From a virus (Duplodnaviria; Heunggongvirae; Uroviricota; Caudoviricetes), in IMG/VR virus record IMGVR_UViG_2690316296_000007, positions 1 through 41,346 of that record: DNA of 41,346 nucleotides. The stretch is one strand, 5' to 3'. The notes beneath the pieces are model-generated. The model was not told the DNA's origin and ran no database searches. It saw nothing but the letters and a program-made list of their open reading frames with translations. The translations under genes were made by a program, and so were the position numbers. Positions 1 to 29,684 of the stretch are shown here, one piece after another. Position 1 is the stretch's first letter, and every line of letters starts with the position of its first letter.

Positions 1-301
1 CTATTGCTGGGTAAGATCATTACGACTTGCATAGCCAATGAAGATAAATGTGACGACAAACGGCGCAGCAGTCTTCTTTTCCTTCATACTTTCCCCACCC
101 AGCATGCATACCTTCTACCATAACTGTAGTGAATGTCTGTTATGAGCGAGAAGCGGAAGTTCGTAATTATTATCAGTACAGTGCACCACTAATTATTTTC
201 ACACTGAAAGCATTAAGGTGTGAAGAGGGTTTTTATGCTTGATTTAATTATAAAATTGCAGGAAAGTGACCTTGTATCAGCTGATGATGAGTGAGTAAAA
301 A

Positions 302-1681
302 ATGTGGGAAGATAAGTATATTTGTCATAAATGCGTGAACGATAAATATGTCATGCAGCATATAATAAAAACTGGAAATAATTTTCAGATTTGCTCTTAC
401 TGCAAAAGGAAGCGTAAAAACATCCACCTCAAATATATTCTCAAGATGATGAATGAGGTTTTTGAGTACTACTATGATATATATGAGGATATCTATGATT
501 CCGGGCGCGGTGATAGCGCGCAGGATGTCATCTACGGAGAACTGGGCGTCGAATGGGACGTAGCTGAAGATATTTATGAATTTCTTTGTGATGAATATAA
601 TCCGCATAACGATTATGACTACATCCGGTATAATGACGGGTTTCTTTATCGGCACATAAATCACTATAGCGGAGAGCTTGCGCATACCTGGAGTAAAGCC
701 ACTGACTCCCTTATGAAAGAAACACGATATTTTAACCGTGAAGTTAATGATTTCCTAGATTCACTTTTCAGTGATATCGATAAACTAAAAAACAGAGACA
801 GTAATTCACCGATAAAAACTCTGACTGATGAGGTTCATCTTTTTCGTGCAAGGGTTTTTGAGGACCAAGAGGAAGTAAAGCAAGCCTTGGAGCATCCCGA
901 GAAAAATTTTGGACCTCCCCCAACAACTTTGGCTCGCTCGGGCCGTATGAACGCACAGGGGATTTCAGTATTTTACGGTGCAACCTCAGTGAATTTGGCA
1001 ATTGCTGAAGTAAGGCCGCCCGTCGGCAGTATTGTAGTAACGGCCTGTTTTGTACCGTTACGCGAGCTAAAAGTGCTGGACATTTCTGCCCTTGACTCGA
1101 TTAGTTTCGGCTCAGGTAGTAAATTTGATCCTCAGACTCGCAAAACCAGTGAGCGCGCGATTTTTTTCAGTACGCTTTCCCGTAAGTTGACGCTTCCTAC
1201 TTTTGGAAAAAGGCAGGACAGTGATTACCTCATCACCCAAGTGGTTGCCGATTACCTAGGTGACCGAAATAAATTTAAGCTTGATGGTGTCAGCTTTAAA
1301 TCTACCCAGGTAGATGCCAACGGTGAGGATGCTGAGACAGGATATAATGTCGTTCTGTTTAATAAGTCTTCCGGCGTCAGGCATGCCGCAGATAAATCTC
1401 GCCGATATAATGTTGAGATGTATGAACACATCGAAGATGACCAGTATGCTTTTGTTCCGGAAATTCAGTTGATAGTTGAGGAACAAATAAAACCGAGACA
1501 TATGGGTTCATTTTCATCCTCGCATGACAAAAATGATGCACTACTGTTGAAAACCAACAGTATGACTTATCATAAAATTACTGGTGTAAAATACCAAACA
1601 AGTGAGACGGAGATTCATCAGGGAGATAGCGTTCGAAAACAAGAGCCACCTCAGAAATTCGATGACCTGATTGACTTCTGA
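302..1681 (+). CDS. RES-domain protein with N-terminal zinc-ribbon-like extension (candidate NAD-targeting toxin/defence effector)
   Basis: 459-aa ORF; N-terminus has two CxxC pairs (CHKC ... CSYC); central segment HLFRARVF ... SGRMNAQGISVFYGATSVNLAIAEV fits the RES-domain pattern (conserved Arg, then GRxN...Y...A..E); AT-rich relative to the structural genes. Confidence 0.6.
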   Translation: MWEDKYICHKCVNDKYVMQHIIKTGNNFQICSYCKRKRKNIHLKYILKMMNEVFEYYYDIYEDIYDSGRGDSAQDVIYGELGVEWDVAEDIYEFLCDEYNPHNDYDYIRYNDGFLYRHINHYSGELAHTWSKATDSLMKETRYFNREVNDFLDSLFSDIDKLKNRDSNSPIKTLTDEVHLFRARVFEDQEEVKQALEHPEKNFGPPPTTLARSGRMNAQGISVFYGATSVNLAIAEVRPPVGSIVVTACFVPLRELKVLDISALDSISFGSGSKFDPQTRKTSERAIFFSTLSRKLTLPTFGKRQDSDYLITQVVADYLGDRNKFKLDGVSFKSTQVDANGEDAETGYNVVLFNKSSGVRHAADKSRRYNVEMYEHIEDDQYAFVPEIQLIVEEQIKPRHMGSFSSSHDKNDALLLKTNSMTYHKITGVKYQTSETEIHQGDSVRKQEPPQKFDDLIDF

Positions 1682-1905
1682 TCATCCGTTATATCAGGGT
1701 AAACTATTATTAAAGATGATGTGAGGGCAGTTAAGGAAGGAATTCACCCGGTATCGCGTTACTGGCGTCCCTTGATACCAAGCGGGCAGATTGCTGAACA
1801 GACACGTCTGTTTGAGCGAGGAGTTGGCTTTGTAGAATGCTTCAAGAGATAAAAACGCCTTATTTACGCAACTTGCTGCGAAAGGACCATGGCTTTGCTA
1901 GCTTC

Positions 1906-1945
1906 GGCACAGAGCGGACTGTCAGATTAGGCTTTACTCTGTGCC
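1906..1945. repeat. Hairpin motif copy 1 (GGCACAGAGCGGAC core; 9-bp inverted repeat ggcacagag/ctctgtgcc)
   Basis: Shares a 14-nt core with the copy at 3104..3127; sits in a GC-rich island between AT-rich cassettes. Confidence 0.4.
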
Positions 1946-2335
1946 ATAGATATGTAAGCTCACACCAGAGCTCATACAACTTCTTGCGGCATTTCCGGCC
2001 ATTCAGGATTTGCAGGATCCACACGACTGACCAGAACGCTGTAGCGTTCCCATGCCTCCAGTCGACTGCGCTCCTCATCTGTTGCCATATTCAGCCTGAC
2101 AGCGCGCTCCAGCGGCAAAATCACGGATTCAGCATCTGCTAGAAGTCTGGCTTTCCGATAGCCCATTTAAAGGATAACTTCCAAAGCAGTGGCAACTAAC
2201 ACTATTTATATCATGAGCAAGGCTTTTCCAGTTTTCATGCTCTCAGGGCATAAAAGTATCAACTATTTCTAATCCATGCCGATACTAACAAAAATACCAC
2301 CATAAAATATAATTAAGAAAATGTTAAGGATCTAC

Positions 2336-3010
2336 ATGAAAAGCTATTTAAAAGGTGTTTGGGAATACTTCGCGAGTCACATGTTGTTTATGTATCTCGG
2401 CTCAGTCTCTTTTGCATGGATTGATATCTGGTTTTTTAAAAAAATTGAACCATCAACAATTACTGCAACAGTTTCAACAATAACACTTGGACTAGCGATT
2501 TATGCATTAACAAGGGTAAATGAATGGATTAAAAACAAAAAATCAGAAAAGGCTTTCGAGAGAACTACATTGTTCATCGACAGCATGTTTCGATCAAAGG
2601 ACTTAAATCATCAATGTTATCAATCACTTATTTCTATACAGCCAAGAATAAAAAGTGAGAACCCCATACTCTACAAGCATCTCACTACAAGTGGGAGGGA
2701 GTTACTTTCTGAGTCAAAAGATTTACGATTCGAATTAGTTGCAATTCGGGATAGTTTTGGTTTGTGGAAAATCAAACCTAATCATTCAGACCTTCTAAAT
2801 AATCTCATCACCACCTACACTGCTCTTGTTGCACAATTTAATATCATTTATATTTTAATTGATGAATTAGAGCGTGGTGAAAGGGTAGTTTCTGAGTCAT
2901 CATGGGATAGTTATATCGGAATGATGGCAAGCGCTTATTCAAATTACCATGATCAGTTCGAAATATTCAAAGATTGTAGCTACAATGAACTTTTTAAAAT
3001 CATTAAATAA
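2336..3010 (+). CDS. Hypothetical membrane protein (two N-terminal TM helices)
   Basis: ORF 2321..3010; the ATG at 2336 is preceded by AAGGA; hydrophobic stretches SHMLFMYLGSVSFAWIDIWFF and TATVSTITLGLAIYAL; AT-rich. Confidence 0.45.
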   Translation: MKSYLKGVWEYFASHMLFMYLGSVSFAWIDIWFFKKIEPSTITATVSTITLGLAIYALTRVNEWIKNKKSEKAFERTTLFIDSMFRSKDLNHQCYQSLISIQPRIKSENPILYKHLTTSGRELLSESKDLRFELVAIRDSFGLWKIKPNHSDLLNNLITTYTALVAQFNIIYILIDELERGERVVSESSWDSYIGMMASAYSNYHDQFEIFKDCSYNELFKIIK

Positions 3011-3103
3011 TAATTGTCGTGTATTGCGATCATATCACCAGCGATACCCATGACATTATGGTGACCTGCTCTCCATTGATTAACACATTGTGATGTCAGT
3101 AAC

Positions 3104-3127
3104 GTCCGCTCCTGGCACAGAGCGGAC
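3104..3127. repeat. Hairpin motif copy 2 (gtccgctc-ctggcaca-gagcggac), between convergent cargo genes
   Basis: Perfect 8-bp stem; tccgctcctggcaca is shared with the copy at 4646..4668; may act as a bidirectional terminator. Confidence 0.45.
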
Positions 3128-3203
3128 GATATCACTGAGCTGAAGGTCCGCTGAGAGCGAGGAGCAGAAGTTATATTAAAAATTAATTAGCACGTTGATT
3201 TAA

Positions 3204-4502
3204 TCACCATGAAGGATAATTAGGTTTTTTTCCTCTTAAAAGAGATACTTTGTCAATTATCTCAACAGAAGCAGTTCTATAATCCTCCTGCTGAAGTAGG
3301 TGAACTGCATAATCTCTCAATTCTTGCAAAGTGGAAAAGCCGTTACTTTCGATGAGTATTATAATTATCTTAATATACTTAAAGATTTGTTCAGAGGATT
3401 CGTTCGCGTTGACGTTAAGTTCGTAAAAATCTTTACCATCATGAACAAGCTTGTTTCTTACGTCAGTATATAACTCGTCATAAACTTCTAGGTTTTTCTT
3501 AAATTTGATTAGTGAGTTATTACATGTAAGTGCTGCAATGTAGGTCCTTTGCTTCCATCCTTTCCAATTTGGGTCAATATTAGCAAGACCATCAAGTGCA
3601 AAGACTAGGTTTAGAAATTGTGATTCCGCGCCAATTGAATAAAAAGATTGCCTACATGCCCTAACTACGGAGCTAACTAATTTTGAAAGTTCATTTTCAA
3701 CGACTCCATCGTAGATAGAAGATAAATATTGCAACCCAGGGTAATACAAGCTGTCAACCTGAGGGCCTAGCCAATTATTACTCACAGCAAGGGGTCTTGA
3801 TATTCCACTTATCTTAATTGGTTTAAGATGAGTCCTCTCACGAGGAATGATTTCTACATCATAAAATCCGTCAGAGCGTTGACCTGCAGGATTAGGGGTA
3901 TATTCCATACGTGTAAATGAGCTGTGAGAAAATCTGACTAAATCAAGCGCATATTCAGCTATAGATAAACACATGTTTATAACATGGTTGTTATGATCAA
4001 TGCTTGAATTAAGTTTTAATAAATCAATATATGGTAGGTCACAGTTAAACTGTATATACGAACCATCTTGCTCTGATAATCGCTTATGTGACTCTTCATC
4101 AAATTGTCTTCCGCAATAAAAAATATACTTTCCGATCTCGATGGTTTCCTGAATGAAAATCTTCTCAATCGGCACAATAACTATGCACTCCATATTTTTG
4201 TTTTTACCCTCTAATTCAGCTAATTCTAGGTTAGAGCTTCTTGATTTAGCTAACTCTATTTCTACCCACTCAAAGCATATTGAGAAGTCTTCTAGAATTT
4301 CGATACTGCTTTTTTGATAACTATCCTTGGTATATTTAAATGTAATGCCATCTCCTTCAGGATAGGCACTGGCCCAATATCCCATATCTCTTAACTTTTT
4401 TAGAGATGTTGAGATATCGTCGACTTTATTAATAAAATCCTCTTTTCGCCATAAAACATTGCCAGTGTAGTTTTCGTACGGTGGTATTAAACGAGCTTTC
4501 AT
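3204..4502 (-). CDS. Hypothetical 432-aa cargo protein with Rx4H (HEPN-like) motif; candidate abortive-infection effector
   Basis: Long AT-rich ORF with AAGGAAG 6 nt upstream of the ATG; C-terminal region contains RNKLVHDG (R-x4-H); flanked by the repeated hairpin motif. Confidence 0.5.
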   Translation of the reverse strand: MKARLIPPYENYTGNVLWRKEDFINKVDDISTSLKKLRDMGYWASAYPEGDGITFKYTKDSYQKSSIEILEDFSICFEWVEIELAKSRSSNLELAELEGKNKNMECIVIVPIEKIFIQETIEIGKYIFYCGRQFDEESHKRLSEQDGSYIQFNCDLPYIDLLKLNSSIDHNNHVINMCLSIAEYALDLVRFSHSSFTRMEYTPNPAGQRSDGFYDVEIIPRERTHLKPIKISGISRPLAVSNNWLGPQVDSLYYPGLQYLSSIYDGVVENELSKLVSSVVRACRQSFYSIGAESQFLNLVFALDGLANIDPNWKGWKQRTYIAALTCNNSLIKFKKNLEVYDELYTDVRNKLVHDGKDFYELNVNANESSEQIFKYIKIIIILIESNGFSTLQELRDYAVHLLQQEDYRTASVEIIDKVSLLRGKKPNYPSW

Positions 4503-4645
4503 ATAACTTCCTTATTATCCAAGAGGATGTGACTGAAATTTTTATCAGACTTATCTACAATAATATAAATTGACATGAAAAATCTACTCAACAATTAACC
4601 GTTATGATTTGCTTGCGACGACTAAAACATGCCGATGGGTCGCAT

Positions 4646-4668
4646 CCGCTCCTGGCACATAGCAGTCC
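4646..4668. repeat. Hairpin motif copy 3 (ccgctcctggcacatagcagtcc), degenerate
   Basis: About 19 of 24 positions identical to copy 2; lies between the pin 3' end and the 3204..4502 gene. Confidence 0.4.
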
Positions 4669-4834
4669 GAGAGACAGTGGCGTAAAGTCATGGAGGATCG
4701 GTGGGAGGAGGCGCTAATCCTTTCATACAAAAAATATGTAAAATCAATAACGGCTGTAAATCATTCAATACTCGCACTATCGGAAGTTCACCAGCCAACC
4801 GCAGCACGTTCTTGCATACGACGAGCCTGCGGTT

Positions 4835-5389
4835 TCATTTATCTCCGACCGGAAACATCTTATACAGTGTCGATACACCAACATCATAGATGATCGCTAC
4901 CTTCTGGCGAGGAATTCCTGCTGCAATTAATCGTCCGGCCTGCTCCCATTGTTCTGGTGTAAGTTTGGGGCGACGTCCACCAATTCGTCCCTGTGCGCGA
5001 GCAGCTTCCAGTCCAGCTTTTGTTCGTTCAACAATCAGTTCACGCTCCATTTCAGCCAGGGCACCCATCACATGAAAGAAAAAGCGCCCCATTGGGGTAC
5101 TGGTATCAATTGAATCCGTCAGACTACGAAAGTTGATGCCTCGTTCGCGCAACTCCTCCACCAGCACGACAAGATGCCGCATACTGCGCCCCAGTCGGTC
5201 CAGTTTCCAGACCACCAGCGTGTCACCTGCCGATAATGTCCTGAGCAGCTTTTTCAGTCCTGGTCTGTCGGACTTTGTACCGCTTATCTTGTCTTCAAAA
5301 ATCAGCTCACATCCTGCACAGTTCAGCGCATTACGTTGTAGATCGGTATTCTGGTCATTTGTTGATACACGTACATAGCCAATAAGCAT
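4835..5389 (-). CDS. pin: Serine-recombinase DNA invertase (Pin/Gin/Hin/Cin family)
   Basis: N-terminus MLIGYVRVSTNDQNTDLQ with the catalytic Ser in the YVRVS context, resolvase-like core, C-terminal HTH; start moved to the ATG at 5389 (track ORF extends to 5425). Confidence 0.9.
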   Translation of the reverse strand: MLIGYVRVSTNDQNTDLQRNALNCAGCELIFEDKISGTKSDRPGLKKLLRTLSAGDTLVVWKLDRLGRSMRHLVVLVEELRERGINFRSLTDSIDTSTPMGRFFFHVMGALAEMERELIVERTKAGLEAARAQGRIGGRRPKLTPEQWEQAGRLIAAGIPRQKVAIIYDVGVSTLYKMFPVGDK

Positions 5390-5415
5390 GTTAAATCCCC
5401 CTGGTAAAAGCAGGA

Positions 5416-5952
5416 ATGATGCCATTTGCTTGTTATTTCTTCATTTTCATAAACGTTGGTTTGGGAGAAGGTTCGGCATTACCCGTTGGTGTGCCTGTTC
5501 CGTGGCCTTCAGCCACTCCGCCAACAGGCTGGCTGAAATGCAATGGTGCGCCTTTTTCTGCCGAAGAGTATCCGGAACTGGCAAAAGTTTATCCGACAAA
5601 TAAATTGCCAGATTTACGCGGTGAGTTTATTCGTGGCTGGGATGATGAACGTGGTGTGGATAGTGGGCGAACTCTGCTTTCAGCGCAAGGAGATGCTATT
5701 CGAAACATTACTGGCGGTTTTGGTCAGTTGCGCGTAAACAGCGAAATAAATGCAATTGTTGATGTTCAAAGTGTGAGTGGTGCTTTTTACGGAGGTACCT
5801 CAGTCCGGAATAACATCAACGTATCTATGACATACGCTAATGACCGAAAAATCCGACAAGATGTTCACTTCTCGGCGGCAAATGTTGTTCCAACAGCAAA
5901 TGAAAATCGTCCACGTAACATCGCCTTTAATTATATTGTGAGGGCCGCATGA
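5416..5952 (+). CDS. Alternative tail-fibre C-terminal cassette (Sv'-like), silent in the present orientation
   Basis: Encodes NVGLGEGSALPVGVPVPWPSATPPTGWLKCNGAPFSAEEYPELAKVYP, typical of the variable fibre tip in invertible segments; the crossover site lies just inside its 5' end; no independent expression expected. Confidence 0.7.
   Translation: MMPFACYFFIFINVGLGEGSALPVGVPVPWPSATPPTGWLKCNGAPFSAEEYPELAKVYPTNKLPDLRGEFIRGWDDERGVDSGRTLLSAQGDAIRNITGGFGQLRVNSEINAIVDVQSVSGAFYGGTSVRNNINVSMTYANDRKIRQDVHFSAANVVPTANENRPRNIAFNYIVRAA
5449..5474. repeat. Invertase crossover site 1 (gix/hix-like)
   Basis: ataaacgttggtttgggagaaggttc; its reverse complement matches the site at 7301..7325 in a ~20-nt core (ttctcccaaacca[a/c]cgttt). 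Confidence 0.7.
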
Positions 5953-6554
5953 TGAATAAAGCTGTATTAAATAGTGAACTCATTGCCATAAAAACGGGAG
6001 ACATTATCATTTATAATTATGATGGTGAAACGCGTGAATATATTTCTACATCAACTGAATATCTCGCTGTCGGCGTCGGTATCCCGGCATGTTCTTGTTT
6101 GGATGCACCAGGTACACATAAAGCTGGTTATGCAATCTGTCGCTCTGTAGATTTAAATTCATGGGAATATGTGCCAGATCATCGCGGTGAAATCGTCTAT
6201 AGCACCGAAACAGGAGAATCGAAAGAAATCACAGCTCCGGGTGATTATCCTGAAAATACAACCACTATCGCCCCGTTAACGCCATACGATGAATGGAATG
6301 GTGAGAAATGGGTGACAGATACCGAGGCACAGCACGGCGCAGCAGTAGATGCAGCAGAAGCACAGCGCCAGTCGCTGATTGATACTGCAATGGCCTCCAT
6401 CAGTCTGATTCAACTGAAATTACAGGCCGGACGGAAGCTGACGCAGGCAGAAACAACCCGCCTTAACGCTGTGCTGGATTACATTGACGCGGTGACGGCA
6501 ACAGATACCAGCACAGCGCCGGATGTCATCTGGCCTGAACTGCCGGAGGCGTAG
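5949..6554 (+). CDS. Tail fibre assembly protein (partner of the silent cassette)
   Basis: 201-aa ORF directly after the alternative fibre tip; conserved Tfa-type C-terminus (DYIDAVTATDTSTAPDVIWPELPEA). Confidence 0.8.
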   Translation: MMNKAVLNSELIAIKTGDIIIYNYDGETREYISTSTEYLAVGVGIPACSCLDAPGTHKAGYAICRSVDLNSWEYVPDHRGEIVYSTETGESKEITAPGDYPENTTTIAPLTPYDEWNGEKWVTDTEAQHGAAVDAAEAQRQSLIDTAMASISLIQLKLQAGRKLTQAETTRLNAVLDYIDAVTATDTSTAPDVIWPELPEA

Positions 6555-6963
6555 GCCATTCAATATCTGGCGCACCGGAAGTATCGATCAGCTCCAGTGC
6601 GTCCAGATAATCCAGCCACAAATTATATTGCGCCAGTTCATCACCTTTCAGACGACCAATAGCGGCTTTACCGGGCCATTGCTTACTGTTCATGTATTCG
6701 TTGGCCTGATTAAGCAATAATTGCCTTTCTGATTCTGCCTGCTGAATAAGTTCTTCATGTGATGGTGGAGGTATTAGTGCCCATGTGGGTAATCCATTTT
6801 TTCCTGCAACACGAATTTTGTCATCTGGAGGCGTATTGATTGCAAATTCATTATAAACATCATCACTGACAGCCAGAGCATCATCTGGCCATGAATTTGC
6901 ATTAATGTAATCATCCTTAAGTGCAGGATTCACAAAAATGTTTAAAGATGGACTATAAAACAT
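6526..6963 (-). CDS. Tail fibre assembly protein (partner of the expressed fibre tip)
   Basis: 145-aa ORF directly after the fibre gene; Tfa-type C-terminus (DYLDALELIDTSGAPDIEWPTPP). Confidence 0.8.
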   Translation of the reverse strand: MFYSPSLNIFVNPALKDDYINANSWPDDALAVSDDVYNEFAINTPPDDKIRVAGKNGLPTWALIPPPSHEELIQQAESERQLLLNQANEYMNSKQWPGKAAIGRLKGDELAQYNLWLDYLDALELIDTSGAPDIEWPTPPAVQAR

Positions 6964-6964
6964 A

Positions 6965-7603
6965 TTACACCCCTATAGCGATATAACGACCTAATACAGC
7001 GTTTGCAGCAGTCGCTATGCTTGAAAAACCGCGGAACTGATTTGATGTAATTGCAGAAGCCGACAGGATTCCTGCGCCTGAAGGTGTATGCCCCACATGA
7101 CTAACTATCATTCCATAACATGCTGACGGAAAGGCAAAAGGAAAATCGTTAAGATATCCGGCATCTTCACCACCAGACCCACCAAATCTCGCCTGCCCCC
7201 ACTGAATAATCAGTGTTCTCCGGGAACCTGAAATAATTAACGGGATCGTTACATACCCATTCAGGCCAATGACACCAGATGCAGTGCCAGCCAGAGATAA
7301 TTCTCCCAAACCAAGGTTTTCGAGAGCCGTTTTCACCGTGCCATCCGATTTGATATCGCCAAACGGATTTTTGCGGCTTAACAGCAGCGCACGAAGCGCG
7401 GTAAGCAACTGGTCGTGCCGCCCCTTCTCCAGGCTGGCACCGGATGCCTCCACCACGCTGCAGAGCTCTTCCTGCAACATGTCAAAGTAGTCATCATCCA
7501 GATCGGTGGCAGGCGTGCCGGTCTGGGGGTTACCACGGGTAAAACCGTTCTTACCCGCGCCGAACTTATCCTTCTGCGCGGTTTTCGTGTCTATACGATG
7601 CAT
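6965..7603 (-). CDS. Side tail fibre protein (constant N-terminal part fused to the currently expressed variable C-terminus)
   Basis: 212 aa; GGAGT Shine-Dalgarno; the crossover site encodes LENLGLGE at about residue 95, the fusion point; size and layout like e14 StfP. Confidence 0.8.
   Translation of the reverse strand: MHRIDTKTAQKDKFGAGKNGFTRGNPQTGTPATDLDDDYFDMLQEELCSVVEASGASLEKGRHDQLLTALRALLLSRKNPFGDIKSDGTVKTALENLGLGELSLAGTASGVIGLNGYVTIPLIISGSRRTLIIQWGQARFGGSGGEDAGYLNDFPFAFPSACYGMIVSHVGHTPSGAGILSASAITSNQFRGFSSIATAANAVLGRYIAIGV
7301..7325. repeat. Invertase crossover site 2, inside the tail fibre gene
   Basis: attctcccaaaccaaggttttcgag; inverted relative to site 1. Confidence 0.7.
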
Positions 7604-7606
7604 GGA

Positions 7607-8191
7607 TTACTCCGGATATTTAAAAATTACGTAGGTATGCGACGGGCAGAGTTTGTTAAGCACGCACTCGACAACGGTGTCCCCCCAGATACGCAGTGCG
7701 GAATCACAGGGATCGCCACATGTCATCCAGGTGGTGTTGGTGGCGGCTGGCATGTTGACCTGCCAGTAATACCGCCATTCCGGCGCATTCACAGCGTCAG
7801 TACAGGCCGATGAGCAGGTGAACGTGCTTTTGTCGTATCGCGTGATGGCGGCATCTGGTCTGCCCAGGGCAGCAAGCTGTGCAAGATAAAAATCCTCGTT
7901 GATGCCACCCGCCAGGTTAACCTTCGCATCCAGCCGTTGCTGACGCTGGCGAAGGGTCTGTGTCCCTGCGGGATTACATTCATCCGGCAGGCCGCACAGA
8001 CGCTCCCAGCGATTTATCAGTTCGGTGGTGGTGCGCGGATCCAGCTCCCGCATCAGGGCATCCGCACGCTGATGAACACGAGTTAATGACGGTGCCGCAC
8101 CGGCAATCGCCGGATCGCTGGCTGACCACGCCGGACCGGGCGGCAGCAGCGCCGACAACAGACGGATGTAATCATCGTTTGTCACGTCCAT
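7607..8191 (-). CDS. Tail/baseplate protein (YmfQ / Mu gp48-like)
   Basis: 194-aa ORF between the baseplate J-like gene and the fibre gene; family call by position and recalled sequence character. Confidence 0.7.
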
Positions 8192-9240
8192 GAAATCGTC
8201 CCCAGAACTGCCAGCTCATTTTTTGCAATGGAGATATTGTCCGCTGGTGCAAGCAACTGATGGCTGTATTCCCCGTTCGCACCGGAAATCGCTTCACTGA
8301 TACGCGACACCTTCAGTTCTCCCTGCGGATAACCATCACGCAGCAGGAACGAACGCAACTCGGCGGTGATGGCAGCCCGTATTTCGGGTGTGTCCGGCGT
8401 CACGCGGATATGAAAATCCACAGTATGCGCCACCGGCCTGAACACATACAAATCAGAGCCTGCCACCGGGGCCAGTGGCCCGATATGTTGTCTTGCCGCC
8501 GTTTCCGTTGATTCTTCCGGAATGGGATTAATCAGGTCACTGCCGGCAATCATCACACCGACAGTCCCCGTTCCCATCCAGTGACGGTATGTCCATGCGC
8601 GGGTAATGCCGGGCACTTCTTTAGCCCAGACGACATAGTCCCCGTCAGCCCCGCCCTGCGGCGTCCAGTAATACCGCTCAATGACGCGGGCGCGCCACGT
8701 TTCCAGATCTTCAGTATCGAATCCGCCAGTCAGGGTATCTGCCACACCGGAAGACGGCAGACCATTCACCGGCGTGACCAGGATTAATGCCGTACCGTCG
8801 TCAGCGTTACCGACCGCGCCTGCAGTTGAGCAGGCGATCGGCACGCGCAGGACTCCACCTGAGCTGGTTGCATCAGAAGTTGCCGTGTACTGAACCAGGT
8901 CATCGCGCTGAATAACACTCCCGGCGGTCACCTTCAGGCCATCGCTGACACCTTCCCAGCGCATATACCCGCTGGCAGACGTGGCCCCCTTGCGCGGACA
9001 CCGTTTCATCGCAGCATGTCGCGCCAGCCAGGACTCATCGCACAGGTCAGGCAGCATGTTCATTGCCAGATAATCGATGTAACCGTAAACCGTATGCAGC
9101 GCCGCCGCATACACCTTTGCCCGCACGTCTTCATCCATGCGCCGGAGCGTGTCGCTGACGTCCAGCCTGGCGAATAAATCGTTACGGAGCATACTGATAT
9201 TTTCTGCCAGCGTCGGGCGCTGAAATTCACTGTTCGCCAT
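8182..9240 (-). CDS. Baseplate J-like protein (Mu gp47-like)
   Basis: 352-aa ORF in the conserved baseplate gene order. Confidence 0.75.
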
Positions 9241-9655
9241 GCGTTATCGCACTCCACAGATCATCAAAAGAAATCATTACCGGTCCGTCACGACGCCAGA
9301 GAGTGATACTGTTACCCAGTTCATTAATCCCGGTGCGGCGGATATCCAGATCAATACGGGACACCACGCCGTCATCAGTCATCCATTGCAGGCATTCGCG
9401 GATATATCCCCTTACCGTCTGCACCAGCTGATTGGTCAGTTTGCTGCGCTGAAGCAGCCACAGTCGGGAGCCGTAACGGTCATTCTGTACCGCAGGCCAG
9501 GTATCCCCCCACCATCCCATCGGGACGTCGGCATTGTCATCAGGCTCCGCCCGCCGCCAGGTGAACAGGGAAATCACCACGGCGCGGGTCAGCGGATCCA
9601 GCGGTGCGCTGGCGCAGGTGCGTTTACCGTTCACCGTCAGCCACAGTTCCATCAT
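9227..9655 (-). CDS. Baseplate protein (Mu gp46-like)
   Basis: 142-aa ORF overlapping its neighbours; position in Mu-like order. Confidence 0.65.
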   Translation of the reverse strand: MMELWLTVNGKRTCASAPLDPLTRAVVISLFTWRRAEPDDNADVPMGWWGDTWPAVQNDRYGSRLWLLQRSKLTNQLVQTVRGYIRECLQWMTDDGVVSRIDLDIRRTGINELGNSITLWRRDGPVMISFDDLWSAITHGEQ

Positions 9656-10200: not shown

Positions 10201-11279
10201 CAGAACGGGTCCTCCTGTACTCTGGCTTTTTTCTTTTTCCGCGCGCCGGGGGCTTCGGGTTCAGGCAGATAAGCATCAGGTGGGCCGACACGGATTTCCG
10301 TCAGGGTGCCATTCTGGTCCTGAGTAAACGTGACTTCCGAGACAAGCAGTTCGGTATTGTCGAAACCACAGACCGGATCGAAGACAATCACCCGCTGGTT
10401 GGGCTGCCACAGCGTACCGTTACCCTGTCGCCAGCCCTGCACCACATAGGTGGTTTCATCCGTCCGCGCCGCCCGTTGTCGGGCTTCAAAGTCAGCACGC
10501 GCAATACAGCCTGCCCCCGTAGCCTGCCCTGTCTGCCTGATATACATCGGACGGTAACGGGCAATAAATGCATCCTCTGTGCGGGCCCGCAGCGCGGTGG
10601 TGGTGGCCTCACCGAAATCATCGTCGTTTCCGGCACGCTGCCCCGCCACCTGGTAAACTGAAAACCGCTCCCGGATACTCTTCTCCGTATCACAGGAAAG
10701 GATGTTTTCCCCAAGTACCAGCGCGGTATGTGCCCGCGTTGAGCCAATACCACCAATCACCAGCCTGCCGTGCGGGTCGTCATAAGCCAGCGCCTGCTGC
10801 TGACCGAGTATTTTGTTGATCACCTCGATCACCGTTTCACCGTGATCAGGCTGGACATCCGGAATAACACCCGACGGCGCATCGCTGTTCACCACCTCAA
10901 TGCCGAAAGGCGCAGCAAGCGCCTGCGCAATCTGTACCAGCGATCGTCCGTTAAACTGTGTCGGTTCGGCTGCACAGTCAATCAGGTCAGCAGTCAGACT
11001 ACGTCCGGCAATACCGGTGCTGACCGAACGGGCATCGTAACGAACGGGGGTCGCCTCCACCCAGCCGGTGATCACCAGCTCATCACCAATCAGCACTTCC
11101 ACTTTTGAACCATTTTTAATGCGCGGCTGAAGCGTGGTGATACCCTCATCTCCCGGCCACTGGCGGGTGATCTCCACGCTGAAATCCCGCGCCAGCCGTT
11201 CAATACCGGCACCGATGCGCACCGATGTCCAGCCATTCCACTCTCGGCCATTTACCCGTAGCGTGACGTTATCGTTCAT
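10200..11279 (-). CDS. Baseplate hub / tail protein (Mu P / gpD-like)
   Basis: 359-aa ORF following the DNA circulation gene. Confidence 0.7.
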   Translation of the reverse strand: MNDNVTLRVNGREWNGWTSVRIGAGIERLARDFSVEITRQWPGDEGITTLQPRIKNGSKVEVLIGDELVITGWVEATPVRYDARSVSTGIAGRSLTADLIDCAAEPTQFNGRSLVQIAQALAAPFGIEVVNSDAPSGVIPDVQPDHGETVIEVINKILGQQQALAYDDPHGRLVIGGIGSTRAHTALVLGENILSCDTEKSIRERFSVYQVAGQRAGNDDDFGEATTTALRARTEDAFIARYRPMYIRQTGQATGAGCIARADFEARQRAARTDETTYVVQGWRQGNGTLWQPNQRVIVFDPVCGFDNTELLVSEVTFTQDQNGTLTEIRVGPPDAYLPEPEAPGARKKKKARVQEDPF

Positions 11280-12604
11280 TGCACTGGCACCTTCAGAGGG
11301 ATCACCGGCACAAAGCCGGGATGCGTAATGGCATTACGCCGGATAATGTCCGCGTCACGCGCCGCGTTATCAAACCAGGTCGCCGCCAGCACCAGCGCGG
11401 GTAAAACCTCATCCGGCGTGCGCTGAATGATCCGTGCAGACTGTTCAAGGCGCGTGTTGATATCCGCATTCAGATCTGCTTTCACCCGGCGCAGCGCCAG
11501 AAACAGCGCATCACTGGTTGTACGGGACAACTCCTTATCAGTTGCCGTATTCAGTGTGTCGCGAATGTCAGTCAGTTCTTCCCACGTCGGCAGGTCAACC
11601 GTGCTTTTCACCGCCGGAGCATTGTTCAGTGCCGGATGCGTGACGGAAGGCCAGCCAGTGCTCTGCGCGGGTGTTGTTGCCTGCCCCACTGCGGCATTCT
11701 GCATCACCGCGGAAGTTGTTGGCGCAGGCAATCGGGTGACGGCATACGCCGCTTCGCTGATTGCGGTCGTACGAAGGATGCTGGCAACCACGTTACGCTG
11801 CTGCGTCGCCGTGGCGGTGGTTTTACTGTCCGTTTTCCAGACGCCGCGCGGTTGCAGATCGCTGCCGAGGCTGACACCGGAAAGCGTTTTGATCATGGTG
11901 ACCAGGTCGCTGGCGTTACCATAAAGGCGTTTCCCGGTACGCCACATTTTCTGCACCTGCTCAACGAAATTTTTGCCTGACGATGGCGGCGGCAGAAGTA
12001 CCGAGATATCCCCCTGCAACAGCCTGGCGGCATCCGATACGGCAGAATCCACCACTTTCATCGCATCAGAAACATACCCCAGCATTGTGCCGGCATTACC
12101 GACGACGTCGTTCTGCACAAAATCCGCCACGCCATCGATACTGAAACCACTGAAGCTGTCACTGATGCAGTCATCCAGTGCAGAACAGGATGACATCAGC
12201 GTCTGCGCCGTCGCCGCACCTGAAGTGGGATAAGAGAGTTCTCCCGCTTCGACAAACTTCAGGTCAAAGCGGACAATACGCCCTTCACTCTTCGATGTGC
12301 TGACCCGAACTTCCCCGTCAACACAGACTTTCAGCTCACCGTAAGTCGGATGGACAAGCGTGCCGGGACCGGGTTTATTCAGCGCGTCAATCAGGCGATC
12401 GCGCTGGTCAAAGCAGTCATCTCCCACCACATAAGCCGTGATGGACGGGCGGAAAGTGACTTTTCCCAGATCTTCGGTATAGGGTTTGTCGCGGTTCGGA
12501 TATTCGTGTGTTTCCACACGACGGCCGGTTCCCGCACTTTCTTCTTCAACCTTAAACGGCACACCTCGAAATGACGCATCCTGAAGCCTGTCTTTCCACG
12601 TCAT
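11276..12604 (-). CDS. DNA circulation protein (Mu N-like)
   Basis: ORF 11276..12610; the ATG at 12604 is preceded by GGAGTG; lies between tape measure and baseplate hub as in Mu-like tails. Confidence 0.65.
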   Translation of the reverse strand: MTWKDRLQDASFRGVPFKVEEESAGTGRRVETHEYPNRDKPYTEDLGKVTFRPSITAYVVGDDCFDQRDRLIDALNKPGPGTLVHPTYGELKVCVDGEVRVSTSKSEGRIVRFDLKFVEAGELSYPTSGAATAQTLMSSCSALDDCISDSFSGFSIDGVADFVQNDVVGNAGTMLGYVSDAMKVVDSAVSDAARLLQGDISVLLPPPSSGKNFVEQVQKMWRTGKRLYGNASDLVTMIKTLSGVSLGSDLQPRGVWKTDSKTTATATQQRNVVASILRTTAISEAAYAVTRLPAPTTSAVMQNAAVGQATTPAQSTGWPSVTHPALNNAPAVKSTVDLPTWEELTDIRDTLNTATDKELSRTTSDALFLALRRVKADLNADINTRLEQSARIIQRTPDEVLPALVLAATWFDNAARDADIIRRNAITHPGFVPVIPLKVPVQ

Positions 12605-12614
12605 ATACACTCCG

Positions 12615-12645
12615 AAAATAAAAAAGCCACCTATTAGAAGGTGGC
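12615..12645 (-). terminator. Rho-independent terminator after the tail-operon moron
   Basis: 7-bp stem GCCACCT/AGGTGGC with a 6-nt loop, followed on the minus strand by TTTTTTATTTT. Confidence 0.55.
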
Positions 12646-12665
12646 CTTGTAATGAATTTTATTAA

Positions 12666-13196
12666 TTAGCGAGTCAGAAACAACGAATCTTTATACTTTT
12701 GCTGTTGTTCATTTAAATACTTAGCTGTTTCATCGCTGGCAAATGGAAATATTACCGTATTTTTAGGCATGGTAATTTCTTTTTTGTCCAGCGTCAGAGT
12801 AAACATAGGAACATACTGAGCAGAGTAACGCACCGCAGAAACGAGCTCTAGTTTAGACTCTTCAATAACACTTAAATTATCCAGGCTAACTTTCTCTTCA
12901 TCTTTTTTCTTTGACGCATTTAAAGTTTTTATTACTTTATTTAATTTCTCCTGAAAATCCTCCTTAAAGTTTTCAGGATTGCCGTCGACAACAAGAATCT
13001 GTTCGCCCTGATTATCTGGAAAAATAATCTTTGCACTTATCAATTTATTTTCTTTATAAACATCACCAAGTTTTATGGCTCCTCCAGATAACTGAATAAT
13101 ATGTTCATCTTTAAAGGAGATGTTGCCAGAGATTATGAGAGATGAAAAAATAGCCGCTGCTCCAAGAATTACACTTGCTGTGATATAGCCTTTCAT
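12666..13196 (-). CDS. Moron: predicted secreted/periplasmic protein, unknown function
   Basis: AT-rich 176-aa ORF between tape measure and DNA circulation genes; signal-peptide-like N-terminus MKGYITASVILGAAAIFSSLIISG; lysine-rich; own terminator. Confidence 0.55.
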   Translation of the reverse strand: MKGYITASVILGAAAIFSSLIISGNISFKDEHIIQLSGGAIKLGDVYKENKLISAKIIFPDNQGEQILVVDGNPENFKEDFQEKLNKVIKTLNASKKKDEEKVSLDNLSVIEESKLELVSAVRYSAQYVPMFTLTLDKKEITMPKNTVIFPFASDETAKYLNEQQQKYKDSLFLTR

Positions 13197-13287
13197 TTTT
13201 CGCCTATTAACATTTTTCTAAATGTGCATTAATTCTATCACTCTATTTATGACTTACAACCAGCAATACATGTGAGGGGAATCCTAG

Positions 13288-15120
13288 CTACCAAAATCGG
13301 GTATAGCCAACATCGTGATTTATATCAATGCCACTGGAGCGTGTTTCCGTAACCCGCATACCTGGTGGCATATTTATAAATGATACCTTGATCTCACCAT
13401 CAACTTTTGGCGCGGTAGCTTTATTAATCATGAAGGGATTCGAGCCTGTGGCATCGGAGGCGTTGTTTGACTGAGCCGGATCTACCGCCGGATAAGGTGT
13501 GTATCCCCGCGCCGGTATTCCCGTCCCATAAGCATCATAAGCACCCGCGCCCCACTGCGCAGAGTTAATGGCATCGACCGTGTCACCGGAACTGTCGGTA
13601 AACCACTCAATAATTGGCTTCAGCTTGTCCCACATATCCTGAAACCACTTAACAACCGGCCCCCAGTTATTGATCACCATCCCCAGCGGCGACCAGGCAA
13701 AAACTTTCTTAAGGAGTTCCCAGCCAGCCTCAAAATAAGGACTAATGGTTTCCCAGAGCTTCTTGAAATAAGGTCCGACAACATCCCAGTTGGTGATAAT
13801 TAATCCCGCAGCCAGGGCTATCGCCGTCGCAATCATGCCAATCGGCGTCATCGACATGATCCTGCTGACAATGCTGATGGCACTGCCCACGCCCATCAAT
13901 CCCAGTTTCAGAATCGCAAGACCGGCAGCAAGCCCGACGACGCCGCGAATAACCCGGGGATTTTCATCCGCAAACTTCGTGAATTTCTCCCCCAACTCCC
14001 CCAGCCACTGCGTGATGTTCTTAGCGTCACCAGAAAATGCGCCGCCAATAGCCGCAAGGCCGTTAGTTGCGGTCCCCGTCATTGCCTCCCACAGGTTGGA
14101 CAGCGTACCAAGCTGAGCCTGAACACGTTTATTCAGGCTGGCCTGTTTATTCATCTTCTGCTGGATCTGATCGTAGCCATCCTTTCCTTTATCGATCAGC
14201 GCATTGACCACCTGAAGGGTTTCGGCATCATCACCAAATATTGCCTTAAGTACACCGGTTCGCTTAACGTCGGTCAGTTTTCGCAGCTTTGCCAGTTGCC
14301 TGAACATGTTATCAAGACCACCAAAACTCCCTTTGCCATCAGTAAAATCGAGCTGTACCCCGAGTTTCTGGCGGGCCATGATTTTATTGACGTCCCTGAT
14401 TTTCTTAACGCTTAATCCGGACTGGATAACTTTTCGCAGGGCATTACCTGCCGACTCCCCGTTCATCCCCATCTGATCCATCATGACACTGATGGGGGCA
14501 AGACTCTGTGCAGCCTGAAGACCGTCCTTATTCACCATCTTCAGAACAGAGCTGGTTTTAGTGAAGAATGACAGCATGTTGGTGTCGTCAACGCCCAGAT
14601 AAAACGCCTTCTGAATTGTGTCGAACAGCCCCATCATGTCTTCTGAGGCCGTTCCGGTAGCATCCTGCATCTTTGCGGCAAACTCGGCAGCCGCTTCCGG
14701 TGTTTTTTTCAGTTGTACCGCAAGATAAGCTGTCGCTTTACCCACACCACCCAGAATGTTTTCTGCCGGGATCCCCTGACGCACCAGCATCTGCATCATG
14801 TTCTGGAAATCAGCCGTTGTACCGGGTAGCTGGTTACCCAGGCCAATAGCCAGTTTATTGATGTCCTGAAAGCTCTTTCCAACCTCGCCGTTCGCATCCA
14901 TCATGGCGACTTTCAGCCCGGTAGCGGCGTTTTCCTGATCGGCATAAGATTTCAGGGAAAGCGTCAGCCCCGCTGCCAGTCCGCCACCAAGCGCCAGCCC
15001 ACCCTGTGACGCTTCTTCCGCCTGGCGTTTAAATCCCCGGATTTTCTTTTGCATTTTCGACAGCGCGGGAGAAAGCCTGTCGACACCGGTGATCAACGCC
15101 TTAAGCTCAAATTCAGCCAT
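13288..15120 (-). CDS. Tail tape measure protein
   Basis: 610 aa, Ala/Gly-rich with hydrophobic segments, immediately after the chaperone pair. Confidence 0.85.
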   Translation of the reverse strand: MAEFELKALITGVDRLSPALSKMQKKIRGFKRQAEEASQGGLALGGGLAAGLTLSLKSYADQENAATGLKVAMMDANGEVGKSFQDINKLAIGLGNQLPGTTADFQNMMQMLVRQGIPAENILGGVGKATAYLAVQLKKTPEAAAEFAAKMQDATGTASEDMMGLFDTIQKAFYLGVDDTNMLSFFTKTSSVLKMVNKDGLQAAQSLAPISVMMDQMGMNGESAGNALRKVIQSGLSVKKIRDVNKIMARQKLGVQLDFTDGKGSFGGLDNMFRQLAKLRKLTDVKRTGVLKAIFGDDAETLQVVNALIDKGKDGYDQIQQKMNKQASLNKRVQAQLGTLSNLWEAMTGTATNGLAAIGGAFSGDAKNITQWLGELGEKFTKFADENPRVIRGVVGLAAGLAILKLGLMGVGSAISIVSRIMSMTPIGMIATAIALAAGLIITNWDVVGPYFKKLWETISPYFEAGWELLKKVFAWSPLGMVINNWGPVVKWFQDMWDKLKPIIEWFTDSSGDTVDAINSAQWGAGAYDAYGTGIPARGYTPYPAVDPAQSNNASDATGSNPFMINKATAPKVDGEIKVSFINMPPGMRVTETRSSGIDINHDVGYTRFW

Positions 15121-27725: not shown

Positions 27726-28052
27726 TTACTCCTTAGAACCACCAAACTTATTACCGATTACTCTCATTGCAGCCCCACGAATAGCATCGACACCGATCAA
27801 CCCAACGCCACCACCAATGGCAACAGAAAGAGATTTAGGCCATCCGACATACTCAAGAGCGGATGCAAAAGTCAGCGTCAGAGCACCACAGAGCAAAATC
27901 TCGAGCGTTTTTCGTTTCCAGCCCCCACCACCGCCAAAATATGCAATGCGCAAGCCAGCCATAACAATCGACATAATCACTGCGCCCAGCGGTGTGTCTC
28001 CACGCCACCAGCTCTGGACCAACTCCAACCAAGTATTTGGGTTATGAGGCAT
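27726..28052 (-). CDS. Holin (three predicted TM segments)
   Basis: 108-aa ORF immediately upstream of the endolysin; hydrophobic segments with a charged C-terminus. Confidence 0.65.
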   Translation of the reverse strand: MPHNPNTWLELVQSWWRGDTPLGAVIMSIVMAGLRIAYFGGGGGWKRKTLEILLCGALTLTFASALEYVGWPKSLSVAIGGGVGLIGVDAIRGAAMRVIGNKFGGSKE

Positions 28053-28204
28053 TTGTAGTTATCTCTCACCTCGCTGATACAGCAGGTGCAAATTGAGGGA
28101 ACATCATGTACCGCAAATCAGAAGCGGAAACGTCAAAGAAGCCGAACCAATGGATAACTGCGGAATAGGCCAGAACCAACGAATCCCCAGCCCCAGAAAC
28201 GACA

Positions 28205-28225
28205 AAACCCGCTCGACGCGGGTTT
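28205..28225 (-). terminator. Terminator-like hairpin upstream of the holin (possible tR')
   Basis: AAACCCGC-TCGAC-GCGGGTTT, followed on the minus strand by a U-rich stretch. Confidence 0.3.
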
Positions 28226-28270
28226 AAGCTGTGTGGCGAAGTAACCACTCTTAACACGATACAATACTTT

Positions 28271-28299
28271 TTGCGTACGCGTTAGCATTTGATTAGAAT
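28271..28299 (+). promoter_or_regulatory. Sigma70-type promoter for the Q-S cargo cassette
   Basis: TTGCGT - 17 bp - TAGAAT, then AGGTGA Shine-Dalgarno before the ATG at 28332. Confidence 0.45.
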
Positions 28300-28331
28300 C
28301 CAATCATCAGAAAGCTAGGTGAAGGTTCAAA

Positions 28332-29153: not shown

Positions 29154-29176
29154 TATACTAAAAAAAGGAGGCTAAC

Positions 29177-29662: not shown

Positions 29663-29684
29663 GCCGCATAGCGGCCATTTTTTT
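29662..29684. terminator. Bidirectional rho-independent terminator
   Basis: GGCCGC-ATA-GCGGCC hairpin with T7 run on the plus strand and T6 run on the minus strand; overlaps the stops of cargo protein B and Q. Confidence 0.6.

What the first reader, a model, noticed from the sequence alone, without database searches (positions are those of the whole stretch)
4835..7603. Pin-type invertible tail-fibre switch with two alternative fibre tips and cognate assembly proteins
Crossover sites at about 5449..5474 and 7301..7325 are inverted copies of one sequence and fall at the fusion point (LENLGLGE / NVGLGEG) of the fibre gene. Inversion would swap the fibre C-terminus and assembly chaperone, changing host range. 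The layout matches Mu G and e14 P segments, here on an otherwise complete Mu-like tail.
Basis: partly seen in the sequence, partly recalled or inferred. Interest (0 to 1): 0.45.

Follow-up and report, generated by a model that had tools for sequence, protein, structure and literature searches.

The report
e14-type Pin invertible tail-fibre switch

Summary
Two 26-bp sites (5444-5469 and 7301-7326) are inverted copies. They are base-for-base identical to the e14 P-segment sites of E. coli K-12. They lie at the LGLGE fusion point of a 212-aa tail-fibre gene.

Next to them is a 184-aa serine invertase. It is 96.7% identical to K-12 PinE and 80% identical to Mu Gin, and its catalytic serine is intact. 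The roughly 1.85-kb segment holds two convergent cassettes, each a fibre tip plus a tail-fibre assembly protein. An in-silico flip gives an in-frame 267-aa fibre.

Public E. coli genomes carry the same locus in both orientations: 10 native and 15 flipped at 80% cover or more. Strain A29 has the same alleles (99-100%) flipped. Two sibling isolates are identical over 9.5 kb except for an exact inversion bounded by these sites.

The prophage has a complete set of Mu-type tail genes and HK97-type head genes and sits at thrW/proA of E. coli. The effect on host range is inferred, not shown. Interest is low.

The parts
4835..5389 (-). pin (pinE orthologue), a 184-aa Fis/enhancer-type serine DNA invertase lying outside the invertible segment. 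The mechanical ORF runs on to an upstream in-frame ATG at 5425 (196 aa).
   Evidence: Pfam Resolvase E=1.6e-51 and HTH_7 E=1.5e-14. 178/184 identical to K-12 PinE. 80.1% identical to Mu Gin over 181 aa. Best solved structures are Gin 3uj3 and 4m6f, E about 1e-94, and the catalytic Ser9 in VRVSTNDQ is present.
5305..5368 (-). Probable recombinational enhancer inside the 5' coding part of pin. It holds two 15-mers of the form G-N13-C: GTATCAACAAATGAC (5354-5368) and GTGCAGGATGTGAGC (5305-5319). Their centres are 49 bp apart. The nearer one is about 96 bp from the centre of the left crossover site.
   Evidence: The block is nearly invariant between the window, K-12 pinE, two other E. coli pin genes and Mu gin, while the surrounding DNA is only 68% identical to gin. 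This position matches the native Hin arrangement, about 100 bp from hixL to the proximal Fis site (PMC3798978). Fis binding itself was not tested.
5444..5469 (-). Left (pin-proximal) 26-bp crossover site, TTCTCCCAAACC-AA-CGTTTATGAAAA when read on the - strand. The central dinucleotide is at 5456-5457.
   Evidence: Identical to the pinE-side site of K-12 e14. Aligns with the gin-proximal gix site of Mu, TTCCTGTAAACCGAGGTTTTGGATAA.
5470..5952 (+). Silent alternative fibre tip Sv' (160 aa after the site, StfE-like), with a Phage Tail Collar domain. An incidental ATG at 5416 opens a 178-aa ORF, as in K-12 stfE.
   Evidence: Pfam Collar E=2e-15. 63% identical to the K-12 StfE fragment and 99.4% to the expressed fibre of strain A29. 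In-frame fusion after the in-silico flip.
5949..6554 (+). Tail-fibre assembly gene for the silent tip (TfaE-like, 201 aa). Its start overlaps the stop of Sv' (ATGA).
   Evidence: Pfam Caudo_TAP E=3.5e-32. 90.5% identical to K-12 TfaE and 99.5% to A29 TfaE.
6526..6963 (-). Tail-fibre assembly gene for the currently expressed tip (TfaP-like, 145 aa). It converges on the other tfa gene and overlaps it by 29 bp.
   Evidence: Pfam Caudo_TAP E=1.2e-32. 57% identical to K-12 TfaP over 101 aa and 100% to its A29 counterpart.
6965..7300 (-). Currently expressed variable fibre tip Sv (residues 102-212 of the fibre plus the stop codon), with a gp53-like C-terminal domain.
   Evidence: Pfam Gp53-like_C E=4e-12. 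99.1% identical to the silent gp53-like fragment next to pin in strain A29.
7301..7326 (+). Right 26-bp crossover site, TTCTCCCAAACC-AA-GGTTTTCGAGAG, inside the fibre ORF where it encodes ALENLGLGE. The central dinucleotide is at 7313-7314.
   Evidence: Identical to the stfP-side site of K-12 e14.
7301..7603 (-). Constant N-terminal part of the fibre, Sc (residues 1-101), outside the segment apart from the site itself.
   Evidence: The first 101 aa differ from K-12 StfP at one position (sequences printed) and match the first 101 aa of the A29 fibre at 100/101. About 96% DNA identity to Shigella phages SfV, SfI and SfII over 7301-8200, which covers Sc and ymfQ.
7607..8191 (-). ymfQ, the Mu gp48-like baseplate gene directly upstream of the fibre gene (context: the end of the tail operon that drives the fibre).
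   Evidence: Pfam Phage_Mu_Gp48 E=1.8e-26. 97.4% identical to K-12 YmfQ.

Best explanation
The region is an intact copy of the e14-type Pin / P-segment switch. Pin is a Fis/enhancer-dependent serine DNA invertase encoded just outside the segment. It binds as dimers to the two inverted 26-bp sites. With a Fis-bound enhancer located in the 5' part of its own gene, it cuts both sites at the central AA/TT dinucleotide and inverts the roughly 1.85 kb between them (5457-7313).

The tail operon reads leftward through ymfQ into the constant 101 codons of the fibre gene.
- In the orientation sequenced, these codons continue into a gp53-like tip (a 212-aa fibre), followed by its 145-aa assembly protein.
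- After a flip they continue in frame into a collar-domain tip (a 267-aa fibre), followed by its 201-aa assembly protein.

A lysogen population would therefore release virions with either of two receptor-binding tips. That is bet-hedging on host range.

Shown here: the anatomy, the reading frames, identity with the experimentally studied e14 system, and natural occurrence of both orientations. Inferred: Fis dependence, flipping in this particular strain, and the host-range consequence.
For: - The sites are real and unique in the window. They are identical to the K-12 e14 sites, whose inversion by PinE was shown by PCR, qPCR and sequencing (PMC4272514; PMC12529663).
- Pin is 96.7% identical to PinE and 80% identical to Gin. 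Ser9 is present, as is the Q-x-x-R-L motif (EQAGRL) that aligns with Gin. That motif is reported as specific to Fis-dependent invertases (PMC3798978).
- An enhancer-like block in the pin 5' region is conserved with Mu gin.
- The in-silico flip yields an uninterrupted 267-aa fibre whose stop overlaps the start of the next tfa gene.
- The native-orientation query finds 10 E. coli genomes at 80% cover or more. The flipped query finds 15, and its best hit, A29, is 97.3% identical over 97% of the query in one piece.
- The A29 alleles are 99-100% identical to those of the window but in the opposite orientation.
- Sibling isolates MEI1-1023 and MEI2B-1023 have the same genome length. They are identical over a 9.5-kb locus except for an exact reverse-complement interval of 1878 bp ending inside these sites. 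The one base that distinguishes the outer half-sites stays in place.
- The tail and head modules are complete by Pfam.
- The isolated phage SKA5 carries the same cassette with an invertase.
Against: - Only one orientation is present in the window itself, so flipping in this strain is not observed.
- The two enhancer-like 15-mers are 49 bp apart by my placement, against the 48 bp I recall for Hin. Fis binding is untested.
- No promoter or terminator signal above chance was found in 4600-7800: 6 promoter-like sites against 4.6 expected, and 5 terminator-like against 3.2. Transcription from the tail operon is therefore assumed from gene order.
- No receptor is known for either tip, so the change in host range rests on analogy with Mu G and P1 C.
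Confidence: 0.9

Rival explanations
1. The switch mainly serves the host as an anti-phage device rather than serving the phage. Inversion would place the gp53-like tip behind the short leader ORF that starts at 5416 next to pin. This would create a small StfE2-like chimeric protein that blocks adsorption of other phages, as reported for e14 in K-12.
For: Kirigo et al. 2025 (PMC12529663) report that inversion of the e14 P segment yields the chimera StfE2, which blocks T2 adsorption. The window has the same leader, MMPFACYFFIFINVGLGE, from an ATG at 5416. After the flip it is in frame with the Sv tip (flipped sequence printed).
Against: This prophage is structurally complete, unlike the defective e14, so the ordinary phage function is available. 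The Sv tip here is only about 30% identical to the K-12 StfP tip: 131/206 overall, of which 100 identities lie in the shared first 101 aa. The K-12 phenotype therefore cannot be transferred. No promoter-like site precedes 5416. The two roles are not mutually exclusive.
Confidence: 0.08
2. The switch is a frozen relic. The parts look intact but the segment no longer flips in this strain, for example through poor pin expression.
For: Only one orientation is seen in the window. The window Pin differs from K-12 PinE at 6 of 184 positions, and their effects are untested.
Against: There is no frameshift or stop in pin, and the catalytic serine is present. Both sites are identical to functional K-12 sites. 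The enhancer block is conserved. Near-identical cassettes occur in both orientations, including between sibling isolates.
Confidence: 0.05
3. The inverted repeat is a chance match or merely reflects shared coding sequence (LGLGE) of two paralogous fibre genes, with no recombination function.
For: Both arms lie in coding sequence for a similar peptide.
Against: 0.01 matches are expected by chance. The match aligns with Mu gix along its length (about 18 of 26 positions) and lies beside a Gin/Pin-type invertase. Exact inversions end in these sites in sibling genomes.
Confidence: 0.01

Closest known systems
P segment and pinE of the defective prophage e14 of E. coli K-12 (Plasterk and van de Putte 1985; Mehta et al. 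2004; Goldberg et al. 2014, PMC4272514; Kirigo et al. 2025, PMC12529663)
   Same: Same gene order, ymfQ-stfP-tfaP-tfaE-stfE-pinE. Both 26-bp sites are identical. Pin is 96.7%, YmfQ 97.4% and TfaE 90.5% identical, and the constant fibre part differs at one of 101 positions (sequences). The two tfa genes overlap by 29 bp at their 3' ends in the same way.
   Different: The tips have diverged. The StfE-like tip is 63% identical, the gp53-like tip about 30%, and TfaP 57% over 101 aa. e14 is a 15-kb remnant in icd with mcrA beyond pinE. This copy sits in a prophage with full head and tail modules at thrW/proA, with a RES-domain gene and unknown ORFs beyond pin.
G segment and Gin of phage Mu (also C segment and Cin of P1)
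   Same: Same logic: the invertase lies outside the segment, the crossover is inside the fibre ORF, and two convergent tip-plus-assembly-gene cassettes alternate. Pin is 80% identical to Gin. The sites align with gix, and the enhancer-like block in the 5' end of the recombinase gene is conserved. The baseplate genes are Mu gp44-gp48 homologues.
   Different: The segment is about 1.85 kb against about 3 kb. The constant part is 101 aa against about 170, and the fibres are 212 or 267 aa against 504. BLASTP finds no similarity between these fibre tips and Mu S or S'. The only assembly-protein match is Tfa145 to U' at 29% over 73 aa. The head and regulatory modules are HK97-like and lambdoid, not Mu.
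SfV-like serotype-converting Shigella phages (SfV, SfI, SfII, SfIV) and Escherichia phage SKA5
   Same: About 96% DNA identity across ymfQ and the constant fibre part. The head and tail architecture and the thrW-type integration site are the same. SKA5 carries the full invertase-plus-two-cassette module.
   Different: SfV, SfI and SfII match only 7301-8200, that is ymfQ and the constant part of the fibre. SfIV keeps part of the cassette with an IS next to it, and no invertase gene is annotated in the stretch examined.

Membership tests
Fis/enhancer-dependent DNA invertases (Hin, Gin, Cin, Pin) | Small serine recombinase (about 185-195 aa) with an N-terminal resolvase catalytic domain and a C-terminal HTH | tested here: met
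   184 aa. PF00239 E=1.6e-51 and PF02796 E=1.5e-14.
Fis/enhancer-dependent DNA invertases (Hin, Gin, Cin, Pin) | Catalytic serine near position 9-10 and close sequence relationship to Gin and PinE | tested here: met
   VRVSTNDQ aligns with Gin Ser9. 3uj3 and 4m6f at E about 1e-94. 96.7% identical to PinE and 80.1% to Gin.
Fis/enhancer-dependent DNA invertases (Hin, Gin, Cin, Pin) | Two 26-bp imperfectly palindromic crossover sites in inverted orientation with the same central dinucleotide | tested here: met
   5444-5469 and 7301-7326. The central dinucleotide is AA/TT in both. The sites are unique in the window and align with gix.
Fis/enhancer-dependent DNA invertases (Hin, Gin, Cin, Pin) | Cis-acting enhancer with two Fis sites, located in the 5' part of the invertase gene about 100 bp from a crossover site | tested here: inconclusive
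   A conserved block at 5305-5368 holds two G-N13-C 15-mers, 49 bp centre to centre and about 96 bp from the site centre. It is shared with Mu gin. Fis binding and enhancer activity cannot be tested with these tools.
Fis/enhancer-dependent DNA invertases (Hin, Gin, Cin, Pin) | Fis-contact residues of DBD helix 1 (Hin Gln151, Arg154, Leu155), conserved in invertases but not resolvases (PMC3798978) | tested here: met
   Pin EQAGRLI aligns with Gin EQAGRLL, so Q, R and L are conserved. The gamma-delta resolvase alignment lacks them.
Fis/enhancer-dependent DNA invertases (Hin, Gin, Cin, Pin) | The segment is actually found in both orientations | tested here: met
   Met for the family and for the same alleles in other strains: 10 native against 15 flipped genomes, A29 and the MEI sibling pair. 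Not testable for this particular strain from a single sequence.
Invertible phage tail-fibre cassettes (Mu G, P1 C, e14 P, p15B Min) | A constant N-terminal fibre part outside the segment, with the crossover inside the ORF so that both orientations stay in frame | tested here: met
   212-aa ORF in the native orientation and 267-aa ORF after the in-silico flip.
Invertible phage tail-fibre cassettes (Mu G, P1 C, e14 P, p15B Min) | Two convergent cassettes, each a fibre tip followed by its own assembly-protein gene | tested here: met
   Gp53-like_C tip with Caudo_TAP (145 aa) on the - strand, and Collar tip with Caudo_TAP (201 aa) on the + strand.
Invertible phage tail-fibre cassettes (Mu G, P1 C, e14 P, p15B Min) | Inversion changes adsorption specificity or host range | not testable with these tools
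   Needs adsorption and plating assays with orientation-locked phage.
e14 P-segment orthologue | Synteny ymfQ-stfP-tfaP-tfaE-stfE-pinE and crossover sites identical to those of K-12 | tested here: met
   The inverted repeat TTGGTTTGGGAGAAGG published for e14 (PMC12529663) occurs exactly at 5456-5471.

The most novel reading that the evidence does not exclude
In a fully competent SfV-like prophage the same flip could do two jobs. It would switch the virion's receptor-binding tip. It would also switch which small pin-proximal chimeric tip protein (leader from 5416 plus the silent tip) the lysogen makes. That would give the lysogen orientation-dependent exclusion of other phages, as claimed for StfE2 of e14.
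Probability: 0.08. Interest if true: 0.4.

Novelty: already known. Interest (0 to 1): 0.1.

Why it matters
It matters little beyond correct annotation. The e14 P segment has been known since 1985, and parts of the queried region match 4583 of 5426 complete E. coli genomes. PGAP already names the gene pinE.

The modest value is this. The window shows the switch in its presumably original setting, a complete SfV-like prophage rather than the e14 remnant. It carries tip alleles that differ from K-12, so the strain would be a convenient system for testing what the two tips bind.

Tried and rejected
- I looked for further crossover sites that would indicate a multi-inversion (Min or shufflon-like) system. 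With up to 3 mismatches only the two sites exist in the window.
- Promoter and terminator scans over 4600-7800 were not above shuffled expectation and gave no usable signal for the pin promoter or for the 5416 ORF.
- PADLOC found nothing for Pin or for the three cargo ORFs beyond it.
- I searched for an att repeat of thrW within 1-6000 and found no exact repeat of 13 nt or more. Comparison with strain 19SZHZ886Rt suggests the prophage end lies at or just outside the window start.
- The Johnson 2015 review, wanted for the published enhancer sequences, was not held under the PMC id I recalled. The enhancer assignment therefore rests on conservation with gin and on my recollection of the Hin and Gin literature.
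- BLASTP of the fibre tips against Mu S and S' gave no hit, so 'Mu-like' applies to the baseplate and the invertase, not to the fibre itself.
Full report
**1. The observation**

ORF listing and repeat finding show the following, from left to right.
- A 184-aa recombinase gene on the minus strand at 4835-5389. The mechanical ORF extends to an upstream in-frame ATG at 5425.
- A promoterless fibre-tip ORF ending at 5952 (+).
- A 201-aa ORF at 5949-6554 (+).
- A 145-aa ORF at 6526-6963 (-).
- A 212-aa fibre ORF at 6965-7603 (-).

The longest inverted repeat in 3500-9500 joins 5451-5469 to 7301-7319 (19 nt, 95% complementary). Read at full length, the sites are 26 bp:
- 5444-5469: TTTTCATAAACGTTGGTTTGGGAGAA
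- reverse complement of 7301-7326: CTCTCGAAAACCTTGGTTTGGGAGAA

The inner half-sites and the central dinucleotide are identical. A search of the whole window with up to three mismatches finds only these two copies, against 0.01 expected from shuffles. So the repeat is not chance, and there are no additional sites that would make a multi-inversion system.

The right site encodes ALENLGLGE, residues 95-101 of the fibre.

**2. What the parts are**

Pfam results:
- Recombinase: Resolvase plus HTH_7.
- Both middle ORFs: Caudovirales tail-fibre assembly proteins (Caudo_TAP, E about 1e-32).
- Expressed tip: Gp53-like C-terminal domain.
- Silent tip: Phage Tail Collar domain.
- Gene upstream of the fibre: Mu gp48 (YmfQ), then Baseplate J.

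Upstream of the fibre lies a complete set of Mu-type tail genes: gp46, gp45, gp44, a DNA-circulation protein, tape measure, tube, sheath and tail terminator. Beyond them are an HK97-type capsid, prohead protease, portal and terminase, an S24 repressor-like protein and a tyrosine integrase.

A tRNA-Thr(CGT) gene sits at 39903-39978 next to the integrase. The flank beyond it is proA, 100% identical to E. coli. The window is therefore an SfV-like prophage at thrW of E. coli. The ymfQ and constant-fibre region is about 96% identical in DNA to Shigella phages SfV, SfI and SfII.

**3. Identity with e14**

The K-12 e14 region has the same order, ymfQ-stfP-tfaP-tfaE-stfE(fragment)-pinE. Both 26-bp sites of the window are identical to those of K-12 (and the alignment). 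The published e14 repeat TTGGTTTGGGAGAAGG (PMC12529663) occurs exactly at 5456-5471.

| Window protein | K-12 counterpart | Identity |
|---|---|---|
| Pin | PinE | 178/184 |
| YmfQ | YmfQ | 189/194 |
| Fibre residues 1-101 | StfP residues 1-101 | differ at one position |
| 201-aa assembly protein | TfaE | 90.5% |
| Silent tip | StfE fragment | 63% |
| Expressed tip | StfP tip | about 30% (by subtraction) |
| 145-aa assembly protein | TfaP | 57% over 101 aa |

The backbone of the switch is conserved and the receptor-binding cassettes have been exchanged. This is the known pattern for these systems. Consistent with that, DNA homology to the side-tail-fibre and tfa genes of HK97 and HK106 (91-93%) starts at window position 5448, inside the left crossover site, and runs to about 6606.

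**4. Is it likely to work?**

- Pin has no frameshift or stop.
- It aligns end to end with the solved Gin structures (E about 1e-94). The catalytic serine is in place, and so is the Q-x-x-R-L motif of DNA-binding-domain helix 1. McLean et al. (PMC3798978) describe that motif as specific to Fis-dependent invertases.
- Pin is 80% identical to Gin.
- The first 90 bases of coding sequence contain a block, 5305-5368, that is almost invariant between this pin, K-12 pinE, two other E. coli pin genes and Mu gin. Overall DNA identity to gin is only 68%.
- The block holds two 15-mers of the form G-N13-C, with centres 49 bp apart. The nearer one is about 96 bp from the site centre.
- This is where the Hin and Gin enhancers lie. 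The figure of about 100 bp from hixL to the proximal Fis site comes from PMC3798978. The 48-bp Fis-site spacing is from my own memory of Johnson et al. 1987.
- I treat the enhancer as probable but not demonstrated.

An in-silico inversion between the central dinucleotides produces an uninterrupted 267-aa fibre: 101 constant residues plus 166 collar-tip residues. Its stop overlaps the ATG of the 201-aa assembly gene.

**5. Evidence for real inversion from public genomes**

I searched complete E. coli genomes with 4700-8200 as sequenced and again with the segment flipped in silico.
- The native form is covered at 80% or more in 10 genomes.
- The flipped form is covered at 80% or more in 15 genomes. 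Its best hit, strain A29, matches in one piece at 97.3% identity over 97% of the query.
- A29 carries the same alleles as the window (99-100% for both tips, both assembly proteins, Sc and YmfQ) but in the opposite orientation.

The sibling isolates are more telling. Soil isolates MEI1-1023 and MEI2B-1023 have chromosomes of identical length. They are identical across a 9.5-kb locus except for an interval of 1878 bp that is an exact reverse complement and ends inside the two sites. The single base that distinguishes the two outer half-sites stays where it was, as expected for exchange at the central dinucleotide.

The literature agrees. Both e14 orientations coexist in clonal K-12 cultures (PMC4272514). 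PinE, PinQ and PinR invert the segment, and a third of 562 surveyed E. coli genomes had it inverted (PMC12529663).

**6. Mechanism**

Shown:
- the anatomy and the reading frames;
- orthology to an experimentally verified switch;
- natural bistability of the same cassette.

Inferred:
- Pin dimers on the two sites plus a Fis-bound enhancer assemble an invertasome, exchange strands at AA/TT and flip 5457-7313.
- Transcription comes from the tail operon through ymfQ, so only the cassette co-oriented with Sc is expressed.
- The two tips bind different receptors, so a lysogen population yields two host-range types.

Promoter and terminator pattern scans were at background and add nothing.

**7. Rivals**

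- A host-defence role through a small chimeric ORF next to pin (StfE2 of Kirigo et al.) cannot be excluded. The same leader ORF starts at 5416 and remains in frame after the flip. However, the tip differs strongly from K-12's and the prophage is complete.
- A frozen relic is unlikely, given intact parts.
- A chance repeat is excluded.

**8. Verdict**

It is nevertheless the already known e14/PinE P-segment switch, widely present and already annotated as pinE in RefSeq genomes. Interest is low.

Noticed in passing
window 1972-2166 (-): A 64-aa ORF is the C-terminal third of a tail-fibre assembly protein (Caudo_TAP E=5.5e-18, profile positions 71-131). It lies 2.7 kb beyond pin among low-GC cargo. 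RefSeq annotates it as an incomplete tfa in strain 19SZHZ886Rt. It looks like a relic of an older fibre cassette.
   Followed up: partly
window 302-1681 (+): A 459-aa RES-domain protein with a HEPN/RES N-terminal domain (Pfam), named 'RES family NAD+ phosphorylase' in RefSeq. No Xre-type partner gene was noticed in the ORF list, and there is no PADLOC hit. The region is low in GC (0.37-0.44).
   Followed up: partly
window 2321-3010 (+) and 3204-4502 (-): Two ORFs of 229 and 432 aa have no Pfam or PADLOC match. The cargo block that contains them (19-4834) is 99.0-99.8% identical in six E. coli genomes at the same position next to pinE. Function unknown.
   Followed up: partly
window 1-4834, compared with L001, L002 and L004: The slot beyond pin carries different cargo in each relative. 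e14 has mcrA. A29 has a GIY-YIG protein, a type II restriction enzyme and a cytosine methyltransferase. The MEI strains have an FRG-domain protein, an AAA ATPase and an HNH endonuclease. This looks like a variable defence-gene hot spot at the prophage end.
   Followed up: partly
window 28000-30000: A low-GC island (0.33-0.36) lies inside the prophage. Its plus-strand ORFs 28332-29153 and 29177-29662 have no Pfam match above threshold. It may be a moron.
   Followed up: no
window 6526-6554: The two convergent assembly genes overlap by 29 bp at their 3' ends, so the same DNA encodes both C-termini on opposite strands. K-12 tfaP and tfaE overlap by the same amount.
   Followed up: no
window 5448-6606: Homology to the side-tail-fibre C-terminus plus tfa of the lambdoid phages HK97 and HK106 (91-93% DNA identity), and similar matches to P2-like phages, begin inside the left crossover site. 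The site may mark a cassette-exchange boundary.
   Followed up: no
L008 (E. coli 19SZHZ886Rt) 10817-13638: This strain has the same cargo block at 99.8% identity and a pinE gene, but with a P segment lying in the flipped orientation. It did not appear among the listed best matches to the window's cassette, which suggests different tip alleles; the alleles were not compared directly.
   Followed up: partly
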